Assembly (NCBI GenBank): GCA_035288465.1
Contig: DATEAH010000005.1
Location: forward strand, 3,636-67,635
From: Patescibacteria group bacterium
Lineage (GTDB): Bacteria; Patescibacteriota; UBA1384; DATEAH01
Length of the DNA stretch: 64,000 nucleotides
Direction of reading: 5' to 3'
In this document: positions 29,637 through 64,000 of the stretch, piece by piece
How positions within the stretch are numbered: position 1 is the first letter of the stretch
Layout: every line of letters starts with the position of its first letter
Notes under the pieces: generated by a model
What the model was told of the DNA's origin: nothing
The model's database searches: none
The model's input: the letters and a program-made list of their open reading frames with translations, nothing else
Translations under genes and position numbers: made by a program

Positions 29637-32621
29637 TTAGATCTTGCGTTTTTTCCAAAGCGTTGAGTCTTTACCCCAATAATTAGGTTCATCGCTTTGA
29701 ACGACTTTGGGAGTTGGCGGGGTAATTTTTTTCTCCACAAAACCAGGAACAATGGTTTTTGGTTTTGGGGGTTTAACGGTTTTGGTTTTTAGGGCGGTTT
29801 TTTTCGGTTTTTTCGCTCGACTTAATTTTTGAGTCTTTCCGCCAGGGGCGGGTTGTCTCTTGGTCAACTTTTTAGGTTTAGCTTTTGTGGTTTTTTTCTG
29901 AACAATCTGCTTTTTGGTTGAAGTTTTACGAACTGGTTTTTTCTTTATTTTTGCCTGTTTTGGCTTTTTTGGGGCGGTTTTATTGACTGATTTTTTAAGT
30001 TTTCGAGCCGCAACCTGATTTGCAATTTCTTGGCGATCTTTGGCTCTTTCTTTATCCTCAATTTCATCCATCGGTTCTTTAATTAGAATTGTTACTGAAG
30101 CGACGCTATCTCTTAAATTTAATTTCATTAAGCGAACACCAGAGGTGGCGCGACCCAACCTTTTAACATTTTTAATTGGCGTTCGAATCACCTGACCTCT
30201 TTTAGAAAAGATAATTAAATCCGCTTTTTCATTTTCGGTAATTTTCGTTTGGATAATTGGTCCAGTTTTTTCGGTAATTCTGGCGGTTCTTAAACCAATG
30301 CCACCGCGAGATTGCAAAGGATAATTTTTAAGAGCGGTTTTTTTGCCATAACCTTTTTCTGTCACCACCAACAAATCCGAAGAAAAACTTTTCAATTTTA
30401 CATCATGAGCCATGATAGCGGTATCAGCATCAATATTAACCCCTGATATTTTTGCCGGACTTAAAACATCCATACCCACGACAGCATCTTTTGGTTTTAA
30501 GCGAATGCCTCTCATACCACCCGCTGATCTGCCCATAGGTCTGATTAAACTTTCTTTAAATTTAATTGCTTGGCCATTTTTGGAAACAATGATGATTTGA
30601 TCTTCGCCAGTGGTGGGTCTGACCCATTTTAGAAAATCGTCTTTGCGCAATTTGATCGCGTTTAAACCAGATTTTCTAATTTTTTGAAAATTTGCCAAAG
30701 GAGTTTTTTTGATTTGGCCTTTTTCTGTGACCATTAATAAATATTTGGCATGATTGCTTTTGGCAACATTAATAATACCGGTAATAAAATCATTGGGATT
30801 AATCTGTAAGAGATTAACAATCGCCTGACCTTTAGAACGGCGCGATCCCAAAGAGATTTCGTAGGCTTTTGAACTCAAAACGCGACCCGAACTGGTGAAA
30901 AATAAAATATCATCATGATTATTGGCAATTAATAAATGCTCGACTAAATCTTCTTCTTTGGTGGTCATACCGATAACACCTTTGCCGCCCCGATGTTGGC
31001 TGCGACAAACTGAAATCGGCATTCTTTTGATATAATTGCCGCGAGTCAAAGTAATCATCACTTTGCGGTTTGGAATTAAGTCTTCTTTTTCAAAAGATTC
31101 AATTCTTTGTCGATAAATGCGAGTTTTTCGCTCGGAAGGAAAATTCTTTTTGAGATTTTTTAACTCTTCTTTAATAATATCCAAAATCATTTGCGGATTT
31201 TCTAAAATCTCAGTTAATTTGGTGATTAATTTCTTGAGCTGATCAAATTCAAGTTCTATTTTAGTCCGCTCTAAATGCGCTAAGGTGGCTAATTTCATCT
31301 CCAAAATCGCGTTGGCTTGAATTTCGGTTAAAGCAAGTTTCTTTTCTAAACGAACTTTAGCTTCTTCGCGATTTTCCGAAGCTTTGATAGTTTTAATCAC
31401 CTCATCGATTTGTTTTAAAGCAATTAACAAACCTTCTAAAATATGGAGACGGTTTTTAGCTTGGTTTAATTCATATTGGGTGCGTCTAAAAATTACTTTT
31501 TGGCGATGCTTTAAATATTCTTCTAATATATTTTTTAAGTTTAAAACGGTTGGTTTAATGCCGTCCACCAAAGCTAACATATTAATATGAAAAGCTTCCT
31601 GCATTTGGGTATATTGATAAAGTTGATTCAAAATTTTTTTAGGGTAAGCGTCTTTTTTGAGATCAATGACAACCCGGATACCGTCTTTGTCAGATTCATC
31701 GCGCACATCGGCAATGCCAACGATTTTTTTATTTTTGACCAAATCGGCAATTTGTGTGACCAAAACCGATTTGTTAACCTGATATGGGATTTCGGAAATA
31801 ATAATTTTAAATGCGGATTTTTTGCCTTCAACGATTTCCGCTTTGGCGCGCATCACGATCCTGCCTTTGCCTTGCGCATAGGCATTTTTGATTTCATCTG
31901 AATCATAAATTTGTGCGGCGGTGGGAAAATCCGGACCCAAGACAAATTGGCACAAATCTTCAACCGTCGAATCTGGATGATCAATTAAACGAATGGTGGC
32001 ATCACAAACTTCGCCTAAATTATGTGGCGGAATATTGGTCGCCATACCCACGGCAATGCCCATGGCGCCATTTACTAACAGATTTGGTAATTTGGCGGGT
32101 AAAAATTGGGGTTCTTTGCGGGTGCCGTCATAGTTGTCTTGATAATTAACGGTATCTTTGTCTAAATCGGTTAACATTTCTTCGGCGATTTTGGTCATTT
32201 TGGCTTCGGTATAACGCATCGCCGCCGGGTTATCACCATCAACAGAACCAAAGTTGCCCTGGCCATTTACCAAGGGATAACGCATCGCAAAAGTTTGTGC
32301 TAATCTCACCATAGAAGGATAAACAATCGCTTCACCATGAGGATGATAATTACCGGAAACATCACCACAAATTTTCGCTGATTTTCGGTGTTTGGCGGTG
32401 TGTTTTAAATTTAAATCATTCATAGTTACCAAAATTCGGCGATGCACCGGTTTTAAACCATCGCGAACGTCTGGAAGAGCTCGAGAAACAATGACTGACA
32501 TAGCATAATCCAAATAAGAGGTTTCCATTTCCTCTTCGATGCGGCGGGGTAAAACCGTGCCTAAATCTGATTTTTCCTTTGTCGGCTCTAGGTTGTTGTT
32601 GGGATTTTTAATATCTGGCAT
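29637..32621 (-). CDS. gyrA: DNA gyrase subunit A with ~150-aa Lys-rich C-terminal tail
   Basis: Active-site region ...AMRYTEAKMTKIAEEML...; GyrA-box-like beta-pinwheel repeats. The tail KKSVNKTAPKKPKQAKIKKKPVRKTSTKKQ...KTKTVKPPKPK is translated from ~29637-30090. Confidence 0.93.
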   Translation of the reverse strand: MPDIKNPNNNLEPTKEKSDLGTVLPRRIEEEMETSYLDYAMSVIVSRALPDVRDGLKPVHRRILVTMNDLNLKHTAKHRKSAKICGDVSGNYHPHGEAIVYPSMVRLAQTFAMRYPLVNGQGNFGSVDGDNPAAMRYTEAKMTKIAEEMLTDLDKDTVNYQDNYDGTRKEPQFLPAKLPNLLVNGAMGIAVGMATNIPPHNLGEVCDATIRLIDHPDSTVEDLCQFVLGPDFPTAAQIYDSDEIKNAYAQGKGRIVMRAKAEIVEGKKSAFKIIISEIPYQVNKSVLVTQIADLVKNKKIVGIADVRDESDKDGIRVVIDLKKDAYPKKILNQLYQYTQMQEAFHINMLALVDGIKPTVLNLKNILEEYLKHRQKVIFRRTQYELNQAKNRLHILEGLLIALKQIDEVIKTIKASENREEAKVRLEKKLALTEIQANAILEMKLATLAHLERTKIELEFDQLKKLITKLTEILENPQMILDIIKEELKNLKKNFPSERKTRIYRQRIESFEKEDLIPNRKVMITLTRGNYIKRMPISVCRSQHRGGKGVIGMTTKEEDLVEHLLIANNHDDILFFTSSGRVLSSKAYEISLGSRRSKGQAIVNLLQINPNDFITGIINVAKSNHAKYLLMVTEKGQIKKTPLANFQKIRKSGLNAIKLRKDDFLKWVRPTTGEDQIIIVSKNGQAIKFKESLIRPMGRSAGGMRGIRLKPKDAVVGMDVLSPAKISGVNIDADTAIMAHDVKLKSFSSDLLVVTEKGYGKKTALKNYPLQSRGGIGLRTARITEKTGPIIQTKITENEKADLIIFSKRGQVIRTPIKNVKRLGRATSGVRLMKLNLRDSVASVTILIKEPMDEIEDKERAKDRQEIANQVAARKLKKSVNKTAPKKPKQAKIKKKPVRKTSTKKQIVQKKTTKAKPKKLTKRQPAPGGKTQKLSRAKKPKKTALKTKTVKPPKPKTIVPGFVEKKITPPTPKVVQSDEPNYWGKDSTLWKKRKI

Positions 32622-42808: not shown

Positions 42809-43003
42809 CAAAGGTCAATAATCAAACTTGTGGATAACTAAATAAATTGTGGGGTTCGTTTTTAAACTTCAACCAACTGACGATTGTGTTTAGTGAGTAC
42901 TAAATATTTTACCAGTTGATTTTGGGGGATACAGCTTAAATTATAAGTAATACCGCCGCACATTTTGCGCCTTAGTTTATTTTCTTTTAAATTACCTTAG
43001 TTT

Positions 43004-54993: not shown

Positions 54994-55226
54994 CTCGTTT
55001 CGGGATCTATGATTAATAAAATTATACCATTAATCTCCTGAAATAGTCAAGATTTTTTATTTTTTTGTGAGGGTAATGAATATTATTTATTAAATTTGTG
55101 GATAATTGCTACTTGACAAATATATAGTGATTTGCTCTACTCGAGTAGAGATCGGGTGGGTTGCCGATTGTTTGGCGCTTCACCTTTGGTGGAGGCAAGG
55201 CCAGCTTTAAGCAATCCCCGATTTAT

Positions 55227-56020: not shown

Positions 56021-56880
56021 GAGGTGGGGGACGAGGTGGGGGACGGTTCTCTTTGAGCGAGGTGGGGGACGGTTCTCTTTTAAATAGACTTTTTGGCTTT
56101 TCTTACTAGCTTCCTCCATCTTTCTTTAGTTTTCGGTTTATCTTTTGCCTTTCCAAATATCTCTGATTATCACTTCCCCAGATATCTTTATTATACGATT
56201 CTTTAATTATTTGATCTACCATCAGCCGTTGATAGTTTGTTTGGCGCTCTTTTGAATTATCTCCTAATGCCCTGCAAAAGAAATCATCAGTTAAAAGTTT
56301 GTCTTTTTGACCTTGAGCATAATGGTTGTAGCTTGAAAAACGATATTTTTCAGGGCTCTTTACAAGTCTAGCCCTTACTGGATTTAATTCAATATATTTC
56401 CCGCATTGGATGAAGTACTCATCTTTTCCTATCGGTTGGCTCTTGAATCTACCTTGCCAAAAGTGTCCTGTCCAGCCATATCTTTTTTTAAAATAATGAA
56501 AGTATGCAAGGTTGAGTTTTTTCATAAAGATAGAGAAATCAGGAGCTTTTTTGGTTTGAATCAAGAAATGGACATGGTTTGGCATTAAACAATAATGATA
56601 AATATCAAACAAATGTTCTTTTTTGTACTTATTGATTAAATCTAAAAAATGGAGATAATCTTCCTTTGTTTTAAAAACAACATTTCGATTATTACCTCTT
56701 GTTATGATGTGGTAATAAGATTGAGATAAAATAAAACGAGGTGGTCTTGGCATAATTTAATGATAACATATATCAGCCAAAACGCCTAATTTCCTGTTCA
56801 TTTGAGAACCGTCCCCCAATCCAATCCGTTTTTTATGGACTACCAAGCTATCTGACCCCGCTCACGCGGGGTTTTCTTTT
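56021..56880. mobile_element. RAYT / IS200-like tyrosine-transposase element with REP-like terminal repeats
   Basis: HUH/Y1 transposase gene flanked by GAGGTGGGGGACGGTTCTCTTT (x2 plus a partial copy, 56021-56080) and an inverted copy GAGAACCGTCCCCCAA (56804-56819), plus a GC hairpin ccccgc..gcgggg (56856-56871). Confidence 0.6.
56106..56753 (-). CDS. REP-associated tyrosine transposase (RAYT) / IS200-like HUH transposase
   Basis: MPRPPRFILSQSYYHIITRGNNRNVVF (typical RAYT N-terminus); HUH motif MPNHVHFLI; candidate catalytic Tyr in RFSSYNHY. Confidence 0.8.
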   Translation of the reverse strand: MPRPPRFILSQSYYHIITRGNNRNVVFKTKEDYLHFLDLINKYKKEHLFDIYHYCLMPNHVHFLIQTKKAPDFSIFMKKLNLAYFHYFKKRYGWTGHFWQGRFKSQPIGKDEYFIQCGKYIELNPVRARLVKSPEKYRFSSYNHYAQGQKDKLLTDDFFCRALGDNSKERQTNYQRLMVDQIIKESYNKDIWGSDNQRYLERQKINRKLKKDGGS

Positions 56881-58810: not shown

Positions 58811-59263
58811 TTATTCTGACACAATTTTATATACTTTCTCGCATGCCGAAATTAATTTTGATGAATATTCTTGATTTAAAAATGTTGCTTCATGTACAAA
58901 TAAATTTCTATACTTTACTGACATTTTAAAAAAATCCCAATCTATCCCCAATTCATTTTTAATATTCACATGTTTAATCCCGAAAACCAGATTGACTAAT
59001 CGGATTACTTTTGTATTACGATATTTTTCATATTTTTCTTCTACAGTTAATGAATTATCATCAGAATGGATAATAATACTTCGAGAAACTGCCTCAATCA
59101 AAGAACATAATAATGCCACATCTTTTATCCCAACATCAAAATATTGATAAAGTTGATTAGCTATATTAATTCGTGATTTTGATGGTACAGAATAATATTT
59201 TCTTCGTAATTCAATAACATGACGTTGCATTTCCATCAAAAGCTGTTGGTCATCATTACTCAT
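58811..59263 (-). CDS. Hypothetical protein with HEPN-like Rx4H motif (RNLFVHE)
   Basis: 150 aa, helical; R-x4-H near the C-terminal third. Weak assignment. Confidence 0.4.
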   Translation of the reverse strand: MSNDDQQLLMEMQRHVIELRRKYYSVPSKSRINIANQLYQYFDVGIKDVALLCSLIEAVSRSIIIHSDDNSLTVEEKYEKYRNTKVIRLVNLVFGIKHVNIKNELGIDWDFFKMSVKYRNLFVHEATFLNQEYSSKLISACEKVYKIVSE

Positions 59264-60198: not shown

Positions 60199-60292
60199 TC
60201 CATACTCCTTTTTATATAAGTTATCCACAGATTGACTTTCGATTTATTTTCGATTATATTTTAATTATAATGCGTAAAAAAGGGGGTGTCAA

Positions 60293-61855
60293 ATGATCAC
60301 TAAACGCCAAAAACAAGTTCTCGAATTTATTAAAAAATTCATTAGAACGCATGACTACGCTCCCTCTTTAGAAGAAATTAAAAAGCACCTCAATCTTTCT
60401 TCTGTTTCTACTGCCCATCATCATATTTCAAAACTATACAATAAAGGATTTATTAATAGATTAAAAAATAATCCACGAGCGATCGAACTTGTTGAGACTA
60501 AAAAACTAAATTTAATTAAAATCCCTATTGTGGGAACAATAGCTGCGGGTCAACCGATTGAAGCGATAGAAGTTCCTGGTCAGTCAGTGACTCTATCACG
60601 AGATGAAATTGGAAAATTCGGAAATTTTTATGCTCTGAAAGTTGACGGCAATAGTATGATCGACGAAGGTATATTTGATGGTGACTTTGTAATAATTCGC
60701 AGACAAGAAACTGCTGATAATGGACAGACGGTCGTGGCGATTATTGATGATAACGAAGCTACCCTTAAAAAAATTTATAAAGAAAATAAAAGAATTAAAT
60801 TACAGCCAGCGAATCAGGTTATGCTACCTATCTTTCGAAAAGAGGTAAAAATTCGTGGTGTAGTGGTTAAAATCATCAGAAACTTAGAAAATAGCGTTCA
60901 GGATAATACACTGGCTTATAAAAAGAAAATATTATTAAATCGCATTAGAAGTTCTAATCCTAATAGTAGCAATAAATATAAAAGAGTTGCTCTTTCAACA
61001 ATAAGATATGCTGGTGGGAAAAGCTTGGCAGTTGGACATGTGATTGAATTGTTGCCAGACAATATCGAAAAGGTTATTTCTCCGTTTTTTGGTGGTGGTT
61101 CAATTGAAATAGCTATGAGCAAAGAGCTAGATTTGGAAGTAGTAGGTTATGATATATTTGATATCCTTTGCAATTATTGGAAATTTCAGATAGAAAAACC
61201 GAAACTTCTTTATGAAAAATTAAAAGTACTAGAACCAAATAAAAAAACTTTTGAGAAAATTAGATTAATCTTGAATAAAGTATGGAAAAAAAGAATAAAG
61301 TTAGACCCTATAACATTAGCGGTTTATTATGTTTATAACTTTAACTTATCATATGGCCCAGGATTTATGGGTTGGGCTTCTGATATTTATTTAAATGAGA
61401 AAAAATATAATAGAGTAATTAAAAAAATTAGAGACTTTGATCCTAAAAATTTACGGGTTAAATGTGAAGATTTCCAAAAAGTAATCAAGAATCACCCAAA
61501 TGATTTTCTTTATTGTGATCCTCCATATTATATTGGAAAGGATTCAAAAATGTTTAAAGGAATATATCCGATGAGGAATATTCCTGTCCATCATAATGGA
61601 TTCCCACATGAGGCATTAAGAGATTTGCTGAAGAAACACAAGGGTGGCTTTATTTTATCCTATAACAATTGTTCGACAATAAGGGAATACTACAAAGAGT
61701 TCCAACAAGTATTTCCAAGTTGGCAGTACACAATGGGACAAGGAGAAACAAGAATAGGCCAAAATCGCATTAATAATGGGAGTAAAAATCATATAAAGTC
61801 ATCTCATGAAATAATTATTTACAATTTGCCAAAGAATAAATTTTATAATTCTTGA
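60293..61855 (+). CDS. Fusion: complete LexA repressor (wHTH + S24 autopeptidase) + Dam-family N6-adenine DNA methyltransferase
   Basis: LexA hallmarks: ITKRQKQVLEFI, cleavage-site IVGTIAAGQP (Ala-Gly), nucleophile VDGNSM, GDFVIIRR...GQTVVAIIDDNEATLKKIYK (catalytic Lys), VVVKIIRN. ~35-aa linker. Dam hallmarks: RYAGGKS (AdoMet motif I), CDPPYY (motif IV). One 520-aa ORF, no in-frame stop. Confidence 0.8.
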   Translation: MITKRQKQVLEFIKKFIRTHDYAPSLEEIKKHLNLSSVSTAHHHISKLYNKGFINRLKNNPRAIELVETKKLNLIKIPIVGTIAAGQPIEAIEVPGQSVTLSRDEIGKFGNFYALKVDGNSMIDEGIFDGDFVIIRRQETADNGQTVVAIIDDNEATLKKIYKENKRIKLQPANQVMLPIFRKEVKIRGVVVKIIRNLENSVQDNTLAYKKKILLNRIRSSNPNSSNKYKRVALSTIRYAGGKSLAVGHVIELLPDNIEKVISPFFGGGSIEIAMSKELDLEVVGYDIFDILCNYWKFQIEKPKLLYEKLKVLEPNKKTFEKIRLILNKVWKKRIKLDPITLAVYYVYNFNLSYGPGFMGWASDIYLNEKKYNRVIKKIRDFDPKNLRVKCEDFQKVIKNHPNDFLYCDPPYYIGKDSKMFKGIYPMRNIPVHHNGFPHEALRDLLKKHKGGFILSYNNCSTIREYYKEFQQVFPSWQYTMGQGETRIGQNRINNGSKNHIKSSHEIIIYNLPKNKFYNS

Positions 61856-62613
61856 AATTTAGAAATCGCTCTACCGTGGACTAAAACATTATTATATTTA
61901 ATTTTTATTTTATTAATTTTATTTTTTAATAAATTTAGTGTTTTTTCTCGACTCATCCAAAATTTGATTTCTCTATAATGCACATCACTATCATTTCTAA
62001 GTTCAATTTCGCCAATAGTTACACCCTTATTAATCAATATAAAAATAACTTTTTGAGCATCCATCTGCCCAATTCTTTTTGCTTTTGAATTTGAAATCGT
62101 GGTAGAATTATCAAGGGCTTCGATAGCTTCATACCCATCAAAAACATGAAATTGATGATTTTCTTTAATGGTTAAATAATCAACTTCTCCATTATTCAAA
62201 AATGCTTTTTTGAAAAAAATAATTTTGTTTTGCCCTTTATTTAAATATTTACTTAAATTTTTCATTGCAATAGTCAGTAATTCCTTAAACTTTATTTTAT
62301 TTAGTAAATATTTATCTCTAGATGAGGGGAAACAATTAAGACAATCACGAAGAAAATTTGATCCTTGGAAATCAATATCAGTCATTAACCTATTATAACC
62401 ATATAAGAATATTTGCCATTTTTTCTCTCCACTTTTCACGGAATGTATATCACCACGTTTGTCTATTACATCTTTTTTCTTGCCACTACCATGCGTTTTA
62501 CCCCCGATTATACACGCAAATTCTTTTTCGGCATCATGACCACGCTGTCTTACCATCCTAGCATTTTCAGAAGTCATTGCACGACGTTTTATTATTGTAT
62601 TCTTTTGATCCAT
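61843..62613 (-). CDS. Hypothetical protein (256 aa); candidate restriction endonuclease partner of the methyltransferase
   Basis: Convergent with, and overlapping by 13 nt, the 3' end of the LexA-MTase gene. No confident motif (possible D...EIELR). Confidence 0.5.
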   Translation of the reverse strand: MDQKNTIIKRRAMTSENARMVRQRGHDAEKEFACIIGGKTHGSGKKKDVIDKRGDIHSVKSGEKKWQIFLYGYNRLMTDIDFQGSNFLRDCLNCFPSSRDKYLLNKIKFKELLTIAMKNLSKYLNKGQNKIIFFKKAFLNNGEVDYLTIKENHQFHVFDGYEAIEALDNSTTISNSKAKRIGQMDAQKVIFILINKGVTIGEIELRNDSDVHYREIKFWMSREKTLNLLKNKINKIKIKYNNVLVHGRAISKFQEL

Positions 62614-62628
62614 TTTATATTCCTTTTC

Positions 62629-62650
62629 TGCTTCAAGTTTACTCTTTAAA
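62629..62650. promoter_or_regulatory. 18-nt element TGCTTCAAGTTTACTCTT (+AAA), copy 1 (copy 2 at 63898-63918)
   Basis: Identical sequence 15-37 nt upstream of the 256-aa gene start and ~40-60 nt upstream of the 87-aa/308-aa operon start. Confidence 0.5.
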
Positions 62651-62667
62651 ATGATTTTTGTACTTTT

Positions 62668-63594
62668 TTATCCTTTTATTAGCTTAAAACTGATTTTATA
62701 TGTGTAAAAGTCAATATTTTGGGTTACAGACAAGGCACGATGCAGACGAATATCATCTTCATGAGCAATAATTAATCCGCAAACTTTTTGACCTTTTTCG
62801 GCAAGTTCTTCTTTAATATAACCCATATAACTCTGCACTTGACCGATAACAACATCACTCGCTCTTCCTCTTTTAAGTTCTATGACTAATAATTCCTTTT
62901 TGTCCTTGCTGATTGCGAGAATATCAAGCGGCCCGGTGTCTGTTTGATATTGCTTACCAATAATTTCACCCTTTTCTTTAAAAATATTATATTTTTTCCC
63001 TAGAATTGTATGTTCCCAGTTTTGGACCAAAAAATCTTCTAAATACTGCTCGAGCGCAAAAACCGAAGGATCCTCAATGGTTTCATCGGTCGCAATAATA
63101 TCTGCGGGTTTTTTGCCAGAAATGAGTTTTTCAATCTCCTCTGCATATCCTGAGATATTGATAGCCGTTCCGGCTGCGCCTGTTGAATTTTGAAGAGCTT
63201 CACTCATTTGATTTCTTTCAATAACCCCCGGAAACCAACGTACTCCTCGACGATGGGGTAATTTTTCACCTTTTTGATATTCGTAGTTAGTTGTGATTTC
63301 GCCAACCATATATTCGGCTCTACCATTAGGACAAAGAACGATATCATCAACATTTATTCCTTTTGCAATAGTCCAAAGCATGCCACAAGCAAGACCAGCC
63401 GCGACTCTTGATCTCCCTGGATTTTCTTTGAGATATTTAGGAATCATCACTTTATTAAATTCGCGCCAATTTTCGGGTAGTTTATTTGATAAATCTGTTT
63501 TTTTAATCCACCCAACACCAATAAAATTACCAACATGGGCTTCTTCTGCATAAATACTATTTTGCCCTAGCATAATTCTATAATATGCTCTCAT
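62668..63594 (-). CDS. Nuclease: N-terminal PUA/EVE-like domain (tentative) + C-terminal NucS/DUF91 (Shedu-like) PD-(D/E)xK domain
   Basis: C-terminus GPLDILAISKDKKELLVIELKRGRASDVVIGQVQSYMGYIK matches the NucS-type D...ExK...Q..Y motif. N-terminus has FIGVGW...VDDIVLCP..AEYMVGEI...HRRGVRW (PUA-like pattern). Confidence 0.6.
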   Translation of the reverse strand: MRAYYRIMLGQNSIYAEEAHVGNFIGVGWIKKTDLSNKLPENWREFNKVMIPKYLKENPGRSRVAAGLACGMLWTIAKGINVDDIVLCPNGRAEYMVGEITTNYEYQKGEKLPHRRGVRWFPGVIERNQMSEALQNSTGAAGTAINISGYAEEIEKLISGKKPADIIATDETIEDPSVFALEQYLEDFLVQNWEHTILGKKYNIFKEKGEIIGKQYQTDTGPLDILAISKDKKELLVIELKRGRASDVVIGQVQSYMGYIKEELAEKGQKVCGLIIAHEDDIRLHRALSVTQNIDFYTYKISFKLIKG

Positions 63595-63596
63595 CG

Positions 63597-63860
63597 CTAT
63601 TCCTTTATTTTTGTTCTATTGATAATATTTTCGATTACCCAATATTTATAACCATAAATTTTTAGATATTTGTATTTTTTGCCATAAAATGATTTTTTAT
63701 AACCATTTTTATCGATCTCGGCAATAAAAGTATTAATTTCTTCCGATTTTTCCGGATATAAGTCTGTAACAATATATTCGTGGGGAATTTCGGGCATCGT
63801 TTTAGCAAATTGCCAATCAACTGACTTGATTAATTTTTCAATCTGCATTAAATTATTCAT
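63597..63860 (-). CDS. Small hypothetical protein (87 aa), first gene of an operon with the nuclease
   Basis: MNNLMQIEKLIKSVDWQFAKTMPEIPHEYIV...KYKYLKIYGYKYWV; its stop abuts the nuclease start. Confidence 0.45.
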   Translation of the reverse strand: MNNLMQIEKLIKSVDWQFAKTMPEIPHEYIVTDLYPEKSEEINTFIAEIDKNGYKKSFYGKKYKYLKIYGYKYWVIENIINRTKIKE

Positions 63861-64000
63861 TCAGTTTTGTTTTTTAATCTCCAAAAGAAAATCTATTTGC
63901 TTCAAGTTTACTCTTAAATTGGGTGGAAAGCAAGAAGTTGTGGGCACAATAGGAAATTAACCTAATTAGTCTAATTATTCTAAAATTGTTATGTTAAGGC

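What the first reader, a model, noticed from the sequence alone, without database searches (positions are those of the whole stretch)
62629..63918. Identical 18-nt element upstream of the two nuclease transcription units
TGCTTCAAGTTTACTCTT (followed by TAAA / AAA) occurs at 62629-62650 and 63898-63918. Each copy lies just upstream (minus-strand sense) of a gene start: the 256-aa gene, and the 87-aa/308-aa operon. An 18-nt perfect repeat at equivalent positions strongly suggests a shared operator or promoter element. Both units are therefore probably co-regulated by one DNA-binding protein; the LexA-domain fusion is an obvious candidate.
Basis: seen in the sequence. Interest (0 to 1): 0.55.

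Follow-up and report, generated by a model that had tools for sequence, protein, structure and literature searches.

The report
Short repeat bracketing a defence-gene pair
An exact 18-base repeat is really there and is not chance, but it brackets a mobile two-gene nuclease module placed in front of a restriction gene and looks more like an insertion junction or shared leader than a LexA-controlled operator.

Summary
TGCTTCAAGTTTACTCTT occurs exactly twice (62629-62646 and 63898-63915). There is no other match with up to 3 mismatches in the window or in 9.6 kb beyond it. With one indel the repeat extends to 24/25 nt, and the flanks are unrelated.

Both copies lie on the coding (minus) strand side of gene starts. 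One ends 37 nt before the 87-aa gene, the other 15 nt before the 256-aa restriction-like gene. Together they bracket exactly the 87-aa + 308-aa pair. The 308-aa protein is the PADLOC candidate PDC-S02.

That pair, or the 87-aa gene with other nucleases, occurs in unrelated contexts in other genomes. None of 80 loci with a homologue of the 256-aa gene carries it.

No terminator and no canonical promoter separates the three genes, so they are probably one operon rather than two units.

The LexA idea is not supported. Footprinting across homologous LexA-methyltransferase loci gives a different operator, TTTCGR-N5-TTTCGR. It is found only at the fusion gene's own promoter and is absent near both 18-mers.

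There is no RNA structure, no Rfam hit, no palindrome and no conservation elsewhere, apart from one 11-mer core in one locus.

Best reading (about 0.4): a junction repeat from inserting the module into the restriction gene's leader. A true shared promoter or operator for an unknown factor remains possible (about 0.3).

The parts
62629..62653 (-). Copy 1 of the repeat. The exact 18-mer is 62629-62646; the gapped 25-nt version runs to 62653. On the coding strand it reads CATTTTAAAGAGTAAACTTGAAGCA and ends 15 nt before the ATG of the 256-aa gene.
63898..63921 (-). Copy 2 of the repeat. The exact 18-mer is 63898-63915; the gapped 24-nt version runs to 63921. On the coding strand it reads CAATTTAAGAGTAAACTTGAAGCA and ends 37 nt before the ATG of the 87-aa gene.
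63597..63860 (-). 87-aa gene. A small alpha/beta protein of unknown function with no HTH. Its homologues sit directly upstream of various defence nucleases.
62668..63594 (-). 308-aa gene: DUF8426 plus a NucS_C/PD-(D/E)XK nuclease domain. It matches the PADLOC candidate single-gene defence system PDC-S02.
61843..62613 (-). 256-aa gene, the presumed Type II restriction endonuclease. It has no Pfam match. In 74 of the 80 homologous metagenome loci a D12 methyltransferase lies next to it; the other 6 are short or truncated contigs.
60293..61855 (+). Fusion of LexA (HTH + S24 peptidase) with a D12 N6-adenine methyltransferase. It is convergent with the 256-aa gene, and their 3' ends overlap by 13 nt.
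60232..60260 (+). Promoter of the fusion gene, TTGACT-17-TATATT, with the conserved direct-repeat operator TTTCGATTTATTTTCG (60237-60252) in its spacer. This is the candidate LexA box and is unrelated to the 18-mer.
63968..63997 (-). Best sigma-70-like site upstream of the 87-aa gene, TTAACA-18-TAGACT. It is weak: 9/12 matches and 4.2 bits. If it is used, copy 2 lies at about +46 to +63 of the leader.

Best explanation
The 18-mer (24/25 nt with one gap) is a short direct repeat marking the two junctions of a promoter-less, horizontally mobile two-gene defence module: the 87-aa gene plus the 308-aa PDC-S02 nuclease. The module sits in the leader of the restriction gene of a LexA-methyltransferase/restriction system. 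As a result, one copy precedes the module and one precedes the restriction gene. All three genes are read as one operon from weak upstream signals.

Each copy carries a -10-like TAAACT and ends on an A at the expected start-site distance. The duplication may therefore also hand the restriction gene a copy of the same weak start region.

Shown: the repeat, its sharp ends, the exact bracketing, the mobility of the module, the absence of a terminator or canonical promoter between the genes, and the absence of the LexA box. Inferred: that the repeat arose by insertion (an att-like or target duplication), and the operon structure.
For: The two copies bracket exactly the 87+308 pair, with a spacing of 1269 nt.

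The repeat has sharp ends and unrelated flanks.

The module is mobile:
- The 87+308 pair recurs in unrelated contexts (L142, L211).
- The 87-aa gene also precedes GmrSD (L140, L145) and DUF4268 (L146-148) nucleases.
- The 308-aa homologue occurs without the 87-aa gene next to a Type I system (L120).
- Recombinase or integrase genes lie nearby in two loci.

None of 80 loci with a homologue of the 256-aa gene has the module upstream. There the upstream neighbour is instead an XRE-type controller gene, a divergent LexA gene, or the gene's own promoter.

GC content steps from about 0.38 in the 308-aa gene to 0.21-0.31 in the 256-aa gene across copy 1.

No terminator lies between the genes.

The genome's real promoters score 11.6-18.2 bits. 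The best candidates here score 4.2 and 3.2 bits upstream of the 87-aa gene. Upstream of the 256-aa gene the best is 5.6 bits, and it lacks the TA...T of a -10; the 18-mer-based site there scores -0.7 bits.

Perfect identity over 18 nt with no graded decay fits a copy event better than two independently selected sites.
Against: No empty-site relative was found: all ~23 contigs of this species are at least 99.6% identical, 20 of them 100%, and all carry the arrangement.

No recombinase or transposase lies inside or next to the 1.25-kb segment, and it has no terminal inverted repeats.

Eighteen to 24 bp is long for a transposase target duplication.

Other 87+nuclease modules are not flanked by direct repeats of 12 nt or more.

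The reconstructed 'pre-insertion' upstream region of the restriction gene shows no significant similarity to the upstream regions of relatives (z <= 1.5).

An 11-mer core GTAAACTTGAA lies 31 nt upstream of an 87-aa homologue in another genome (L140/L141). That hints the sequence may be a functional part of the 87-aa gene's leader.
Confidence: 0.4

Rival explanations
1. The element is a genuine shared cis-regulatory site. It would be a non-canonical core promoter (-10-like TAAACT through +1) or an operator overlapping it, recognised by an unidentified factor other than LexA. That factor would switch on the PDC-S02 module and the restriction gene together.
For: Both copies are intergenic, in the sense orientation, and at plausible -10 distances. 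The -10-like hexamer ends 44 nt and 22 nt before the ATGs. For comparison, the -10 ends 32-45 nt before the ATG in 87-aa homologue loci and 21-32 nt before it in loci of 256-aa homologues. Copy 2 has TTGCTT at a 17-nt spacing. Both genes lack canonical promoters in a genome whose promoters are near-consensus. The 11-mer core recurs upstream of an 87-aa homologue in L140/L141; my estimate is p of about 0.001-0.004.
Against: Promoter scores are at background level: 3.2 and -0.7 bits. The closest 87-aa homologue locus (80% identity, L139) and four others have ordinary promoters and no such element. There is no dyad or internal repeat symmetry. No candidate DNA-binding protein is present in the locus: the 87-aa protein has no HTH or RHH and no known fold. 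Only two copies occur in 74 kb. Independently maintained sites are rarely identical over 18 nt.
Confidence: 0.3
2. The element acts in the RNA. It would be an unstructured site, present in the leader and again in the intercistronic gap of one polycistronic mRNA, that is bound by a protein or small RNA or cut by an RNase to set the relative expression of the nucleases.
For: If transcription starts at the TTAACA-18-TAGACT site, both copies are transcribed. No terminator lies between the genes. Both copies are predicted to be largely single-stranded, hence accessible.
Against: There is no structure signal (z +1.36, -0.32, +1.30, +1.17) and no Rfam match. No complementary copy exists in the window. 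The distances to the start codons differ (15 vs 37 nt), so it is not a common ribosome-site operator. It is not conserved in relatives.
Confidence: 0.1
3. One reading: the element is an operator bound by the LexA domain of the LexA-methyltransferase fusion, placing both nucleases under SOS control.
For: A full LexA (TIGR00498, 189.6 bits against a cutoff of 110.95) is fused to the methyltransferase next door. In several related loci a LexA-type gene lies beside the restriction gene.
Against: The operator conserved at the promoters of these fusion genes is TTTCGR-N5-TTTCGR. It is absent from both 18-mer regions (best 3.6 bits, against 22-33 bits for real sites). It is also absent upstream of homologues of the 256-aa gene in all 11 loci examined. 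The only exact match in the window is at 60237-60252.
Confidence: 0.03
4. The match is a chance coincidence in AT-rich intergenic DNA.
For: One other exact 18-nt direct repeat exists in the window, at 31611/59141.
Against: My expected number for an 18-mer pair within 1.3 kb is about 0.004 per window. In addition, both copies are intergenic and co-oriented with the genes, and the match extends to 24/25 nt.
Confidence: 0.02

Closest known systems
Direct repeats (att-core or target-site duplications) flanking integrated gene cassettes or genomic islets
   Same: Short identical direct repeats sit exactly at the two ends of a horizontally acquired, self-contained gene module inside a defence island. 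The flanks on either side are unrelated.
   Different: No integrase or transposase is associated with the segment, it has no terminal inverted repeats, and no empty site has been observed. At 18-24 bp the repeat is longer than typical transposase duplications. Other copies of the module elsewhere lack such repeats.
Controller (C-protein) operators, the C-boxes of Type II restriction-modification systems
   Same: A cis element upstream of the restriction gene that could time nuclease expression. Relatives of this restriction gene do have an XRE-type C gene overlapping its start.
   Different: There is no C gene here. The element is not palindromic. It occurs twice, 1.27 kb apart, rather than as adjacent OL/OR sites. 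No similar sequence occurs in the C-controlled relatives.
Methyltransferases with an N-terminal DNA-binding domain that autoregulate and tune the restriction gene (SsoII/Ecl18kI/EcoRII type; reviewed in PMC3874152, plus my own knowledge)
   Same: The neighbouring methyltransferase carries an N-terminal DNA-binding domain (a whole LexA) and has a conserved operator inside its own promoter.
   Different: That operator (TTTCGR-N5-TTTCGR) is a different sequence from the 18-mer. It lies 2.4 kb away, at the far end of a convergent gene pair. Nothing links it to the promoter side of the restriction gene.
LexA (SOS) boxes
   Same: The size is comparable (about 16-20 bp) and the position is near a possible -10.
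   Different: It does not match the clade's deduced motif, has no repeat or dyad symmetry, and is not found upstream of orthologues.

Membership tests
LexA/SOS box | Matches the LexA-binding motif of the clade | tested here: not met
   A PWM built from 8 conserved sites upstream of LexA-methyltransferase genes scores true sites at 22-33 bits. The best hits within 62600-62700 and 63870-64000 score 3.6 and 3.2 bits. The published Patescibacteria motif (Sanchez-Osuna et al. 2017, cited in PMC8565304) could not be read.
LexA/SOS box | Conserved upstream of orthologous target genes | tested here: not met
   No LexA-box hit lies upstream of homologues of the 256-aa gene in 11 loci. No 18-mer-like sequence lies upstream of any of the 80 homologues.
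C-box of a controller protein | An HTH controller gene adjacent to or overlapping the restriction gene | tested here: not met
   The 87-, 256- and 308-aa proteins have no HTH by Pfam. The 87-aa model is alpha/beta with no DNA-binding fold match. Relatives do have such a gene.
C-box of a controller protein | Dyad-symmetric paired operator sites | tested here: not met
   Reading the sequence directly, only 3-bp arms are present (CTTgAAG).
Sigma-70 promoter | -35 and -10 hexamers at 16-18 bp with a score comparable to the genome's own promoters | tested here: inconclusive
   TTGCTT-17-TAAACT scores 3.2 bits and AGTACA-17-TAAACT scores -0.7 bits, against 11.6-18.2 bits for 13 promoters of this window. 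The key bases (TTG, TA...T) are present in copy 2 only. Weak promoters cannot be excluded in silico.
Insertion junction repeat (att core / target duplication) | Direct repeats exactly flanking a discrete acquired segment | tested here: met
   The copies bracket the 87+308 module, with 1251 nt between them. The flanks are unrelated. The module is found in other contexts elsewhere.
Insertion junction repeat (att core / target duplication) | An empty site with a single copy in a relative | tested here: inconclusive
   All contigs of the species are essentially identical and occupied. More distant relatives share no alignable flank.
Insertion junction repeat (att core / target duplication) | An associated recombinase or transposase, or terminal inverted repeats | tested here: not met
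   No such gene lies in or next to the segment. The nearest is a Y1 transposase about 6 kb away with its own, different repeats. The ends of the segment are no more complementary than shuffles (242 of 500 as good).
Structured RNA leader / riboswitch | Stable or conserved secondary structure, or an Rfam match | tested here: not met
   z-scores are +1.36, -0.32, +1.30 and +1.17. No Rfam match at E <= 1.
Dispersed intergenic repeat (REP/MITE-like) | Many copies per genome, usually hairpin-forming | tested here: inconclusive
   Only 2 copies occur in about 74 kb, and there is no hairpin. The rest of the genome could not be searched. Hits in the public collections are at the chance level: 15 single hits in genome contigs, about the ~17 I expect by chance, and 17 single hits in viral contigs (no expectation calculated).

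The most novel reading that the evidence does not exclude
The 18-24-nt element is a dedicated start or recognition site for a factor other than the housekeeping sigma or LexA. Examples would be an alternative sigma, or an activator induced on infection. In a Patescibacteria cell this factor would fire an unrelated stand-alone nuclease module and a Type II restriction gene together. The same sequence would double as the homology patch by which such modules are swapped into defence operons.
Probability: 0.12. Interest if true: 0.5.

Novelty: new member of a known kind. Interest (0 to 1): 0.25.

Why it matters
If the repeat is a junction, it gives a concrete, datable example of how a promoter-less defence module is slotted into the leader of a restriction gene in an ultra-small (CPR) bacterium. 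That creates a composite three-gene nuclease operon.

If it is a regulatory site, it would be a first handle on how such bacteria co-ordinate unrelated nucleases. Either way the consequence is local and modest.

The more valuable by-products concern the surroundings:
- the recurrent LexA-methyltransferase fusion with its own conserved direct-repeat operator;
- the widespread 87-aa 'leader' protein of defence nucleases.

Tried and rejected
- Exact 18-mer search of the public collections. It returned 15 scattered single hits in genome contigs and 17 in viral contigs, the chance level, and none from a relative. The source genome is not in those collections.
- Search for an empty-site variant by exact look-up of the three proteins. 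Every contig has the same arrangement at 99.6-100% identity.
- Homology of the flanks, or of a reconstructed pre-insertion junction, to relatives. Nothing significant.
- Larger duplication. Rejected.
- Terminal inverted repeats. None.
- RNA structure and Rfam. Nothing.
- LexA box. A different motif, absent here.
- Methylation-sensitive site. No palindrome lies inside the 18-mer. The avoided palindromes GGCC and GATC are not in it, and only a trivial TTAA sits at its edge.
- The 87-aa protein as the regulator. The model is confident (pLDDT 91), but there is no DNA-binding fold, no PDB sequence match and no Foldseek match.
- Sigma-32-like CTTGAA, sigma-54 TTGCW, the RfaH ops element and integron core sites were compared by eye. 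The partner elements are missing, so these were dropped (own knowledge).
- Small antisense ORFs translating the 18-mer as CFKFTL (62413-62649 and 63826-63960, + strand). They lie antisense to real genes and have no support, so they were treated as spurious.
- The 2017 paper on the Patescibacteria SOS network is not held, so its motif could not be compared.

Full report
OBSERVATION

The 18-mer TGCTTCAAGTTTACTCTT is present at 62629-62646 and 63898-63915. No other match exists in the 64-kb window, even with 3 mismatches allowed. The source contig was recovered from several metagenomes (L033-L038). In L033, which extends 9.6 kb past the window end, the same two copies are again the only matches.

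Ungapped, the repeat is 21 nt with one mismatch. With one gap, on the coding (minus) strand, it reads CA[T/A]TTT[A/-]AAGAGTAAACTTGAAGCA, 24 of 25 positions. Outside this the flanks align no better than shuffled sequence. It is therefore a discrete short repeat, not the visible core of a larger duplication.

At 37% GC I estimate about 0.004 chance pairs of this length within 1.3 kb per window. The window holds only three regions with exact repeats of 18 nt or more.

ANATOMY

All relevant genes are on the minus strand:
- the 87-aa gene, 63860-63597;
- a 2-nt gap;
- the 308-aa gene, 63594-62668;
- a 54-nt gap containing copy 1;
- the 256-aa gene, 62613-61843.

Copy 2 ends 37 nt upstream of the 87-aa ATG. 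Copy 1 ends 15 nt upstream of the 256-aa ATG. The two copies therefore bracket exactly the 87+308 pair.

The 308-aa protein has DUF8426 plus a NucS-type PD-(D/E)XK domain. It matches the PADLOC candidate PDC-S02 at E about 1e-147.

The 256-aa protein has no family match. In 74 of the 80 metagenome loci a D12 methyltransferase lies next to its homologue; the other 6 are short or truncated contigs. This identifies it as the restriction partner of the convergent gene at 60293-61855.

That gene encodes a complete LexA (HTH + S24 peptidase; TIGR00498, 189.6 bits) fused to a Dam-family methyltransferase. The organism is a Patescibacteria (CPR) bacterium, according to the names attached to identical proteins.

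ONE OPERON RATHER THAN TWO UNITS

No terminator-like site lies between the three genes.

Promoters in this genome are close to consensus. Thirteen upstream regions in the window carry TTGACA-like/TATAAT-like pairs scoring 11.6-18.2 bits on a PWM built from them.

Against that standard:
- the best site upstream of the 87-aa gene is TTAACA-18-TAGACT (63997-63968), at 4.2 bits;
- the site using the 18-mer, TTGCTT-17-TAAACT, scores 3.2 bits;
- upstream of the 256-aa gene the best is TTTACA-19-GCTAAT at 5.6 bits, which lacks the TA...T of a -10, and the 18-mer-based site AGTACA-17-TAAACT scores -0.7 bits.

The restriction gene therefore has no credible promoter of its own. It is most simply read through from the module.

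THE LEXA PROPOSAL

I aligned the regions upstream of the LexA-methyltransferase genes in the window and in homologous loci. A conserved direct repeat, TTTCGR-N5-TTTCGR (TTCG-N7-TTCG, 11-bp period), lies between the -35 and -10 hexamers. In the window it reads gaTTGACTTTCGATTTATTTTCGATTATATT. Stand-alone LexA genes that diverge from the restriction gene in L051 and L061 carry the same kind of repeat.

A PWM from eight sites scores true sites at 22-33 bits. It finds exactly one site in the window (60235-60255). It finds none upstream of any homologue of the 256-aa gene. Near the two 18-mers it gives nothing above 3.6 bits. On present evidence the LexA domain regulates its own gene, not the 18-mer.

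COMPARATIVE EVIDENCE ON THE ELEMENT

None of the 80 loci with a homologue of the 256-aa gene carries the 87- or 308-aa genes upstream. The upstream neighbour there is one of three things:
- an XRE-type controller gene whose stop overlaps the start of the restriction gene (L045, L047, L049, L050, L054, L059);
- a divergent LexA gene;
- an ordinary promoter, for example TTGTTT-17-TAGAAT, 21 nt before the ATG in L039.

The 308-aa family is huge (more than 7700 proteins) and highly conserved. It occurs without the 87-aa gene beside a Type I system (L120).

The 87-aa family precedes PDC-S02 (L142, L211), GmrSD (L140, L145) or DUF4268 (L146-148) nucleases. It sometimes lies inside longer operons or beside recombinases. 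It also has 62 distant homologues in viral contigs.

The module is thus clearly mobile. None of these loci contains the 18-mer, and none of the other modules is flanked by direct repeats of 12 nt or more.

There is one exception. In L140/L141 the 11-mer GTAAACTTGAA lies 31 nt upstream of the ATG of the 87-aa homologue. Only one other 11-mer sub-word hit occurs in about 0.97 Mb of related sequence. I estimate p at about 0.001-0.004 for this. It is a hint, not proof, of function. The closest homologue locus (80% identity, L139) has an ordinary TTTACC-17-TATAGT promoter instead.

TESTS OF OTHER READINGS

- RNA folding of both regions gives z-scores from -0.3 to +1.4, and Rfam finds nothing.
- The element has no dyad or internal repeat symmetry.
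- It contains no palindrome that could be a methylation site. The avoided palindromes GGCC (z -11) and GATC (z -4.9) are absent from it.
- The ends of the bracketed segment are not inverted repeats.
- No recombinase lies in or next to the segment.
- No empty-site variant exists among about 23 essentially identical contigs.
- A reconstructed pre-insertion junction shows no significant similarity to the upstream regions of relatives.
- The 87-aa protein folds confidently (pLDDT 91) into a small alpha/beta domain. It has no PDB neighbour and no DNA-binding motif, so it is not an obvious regulator.

INTERPRETATION

Two explanations survive.

(a) Junction repeat. A promoter-less 87+PDC-S02 module was inserted into the leader of the restriction gene, duplicating or recombining through an 18-24-bp sequence. 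This explains:
- the exact bracketing;
- the sharp ends and perfect identity;
- the unrelated flanks;
- the unequal distances to the two ATGs;
- the lack of a promoter in front of the restriction gene;
- the absence of the element from every other locus.

Its weaknesses are the missing recombinase, the missing empty site, and the unusual length for a target duplication.

(b) Shared start or operator site for an unknown factor. This explains the sense orientation and the promoter-like placement (TAAACT, with each copy ending on an A at the +1 distance). It also explains the lack of canonical promoters and the 11-mer in L140. Its weaknesses are the background-level promoter scores, the absence of any candidate binding protein, the lack of conservation, and only two copies.

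I rate (a) at about 0.4 and (b) at about 0.3. An RNA-level site gets about 0.1, the LexA operator about 0.03 and chance about 0.02. The two leading readings are not exclusive: a duplicated leader segment could also give the restriction gene a weak start site.

VERDICT

The co-expression idea is reasonable, probably through one operon. The LexA link is contradicted by the operator actually conserved at these fusion genes. The element belongs to a familiar kind, a short direct repeat at the borders of an acquired defence module or a shared leader, and is of modest interest on its own.

Noticed in passing
window 60232-60260; L039, L040, L044, L045, L051, L054, L060, L064 upstream of the LexA-methyltransferase genes: A conserved direct repeat TTTCGR-N5-TTTCGR (11-bp period) lies in the promoter spacer of every LexA-D12 methyltransferase fusion gene and of stand-alone LexA genes in L051 and L061. 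It is a candidate LexA box of this Patescibacteria clade, with a geometry like the alphaproteobacterial GTTC-N7-GTTC. The fusion with a convergent restriction gene recurs in at least 20 metagenome loci.
   Followed up: partly
window 60221-60229 (also 42829-42837 and 55097-55105); L044, L045, L049, L051, L054, L060, L061, L064: A perfect DnaA-box-like 9-mer, TTATCCACA / TGTGGATAA, sits beside the LexA-methyltransferase promoter in the window and in most homologous loci. The window has 3 copies against 0.57 expected. Unexplained.
   Followed up: partly
window 63597-63860; L139-L148, L211-L213, L149-L210: The 87-aa protein carries invariant W16, K20, M22, P26, H27, Y29 and a Y73-W74 pair. It belongs to a family placed directly upstream of different defence nucleases (PDC-S02, GmrSD, DUF4268), with 62 distant homologues in viral contigs. 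The AF2 model is confident (pLDDT 91) with no PDB fold match, and no Pfam, PHROG or PADLOC family matches it.
   Followed up: partly
L033:9060-9600, immediately beyond the window end (the window's last bases, about 63998-64000, touch it): A GC-rich stretch of about 540 nt (0.41-0.47 GC against 0.27-0.33 in the flanks) lies between the NYN-domain gene and the operon. It was called as a 186-aa gene but looks non-coding. It folds far better than shuffles (z -3.6, 0 of 100 as good), is preceded by TTGTCA-17-TAATAT, and has no Rfam match. It may be an unknown structured RNA or a long leader of the nuclease operon.
   Followed up: partly
L045, L047, L049, L050, L054, L059 (upstream of the 256-aa homologue); L051-L053, L061-L063, L068: Relatives of the restriction gene are preceded either by an XRE-type controller gene whose stop overlaps the restriction gene's start, or by a second, divergent stand-alone LexA gene. 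The window's locus has neither. Control of this restriction family has been rewired repeatedly.
   Followed up: partly
window 61843-61855: The 3' ends of the convergent 256-aa gene and the LexA-methyltransferase gene overlap by 13 nt. Colliding transcription could contribute to their balance.
   Followed up: no
window 31611-31628 and 59141-59158: A second exact 18-nt direct repeat, ATATTGATAAAGTTGATT, has its copies 27.5 kb apart. The second copy lies inside the 150-aa gene (58811-59263, minus strand). It was not examined.
   Followed up: no
window 56032-56080 and 56804-56818, flanking 56106-56753: A Y1 (IS200/IS605-type or REP-associated) transposase gene is flanked by a tandem pair of a 23-26-nt G-rich repeat (CGAGGTGGGGGACGGTTCTCTTT) on one side and an inverted copy on the other. 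These are probably the element's end hairpins.
   Followed up: no
L139:3900-4000 and L144:2900-3000: Upstream of two 87-aa homologues, a GC-rich arm inside the promoter spacer (TCGCCCCTGA / ACCGTTCCTGA) is complementary to a sequence covering the ribosome-binding site (TCAGGGGGCGA / TTGGGGCGGT). The changes between the two loci preserve the pairing. It may be a regulatory stem or a split operator. It is absent from the window's locus.
   Followed up: no
whole window: GGCC is strongly under-represented (120 observed against 245 expected, z -11) and GATC moderately so (z -4.9). This suggests past or present restriction pressure on these sites.
   Followed up: no
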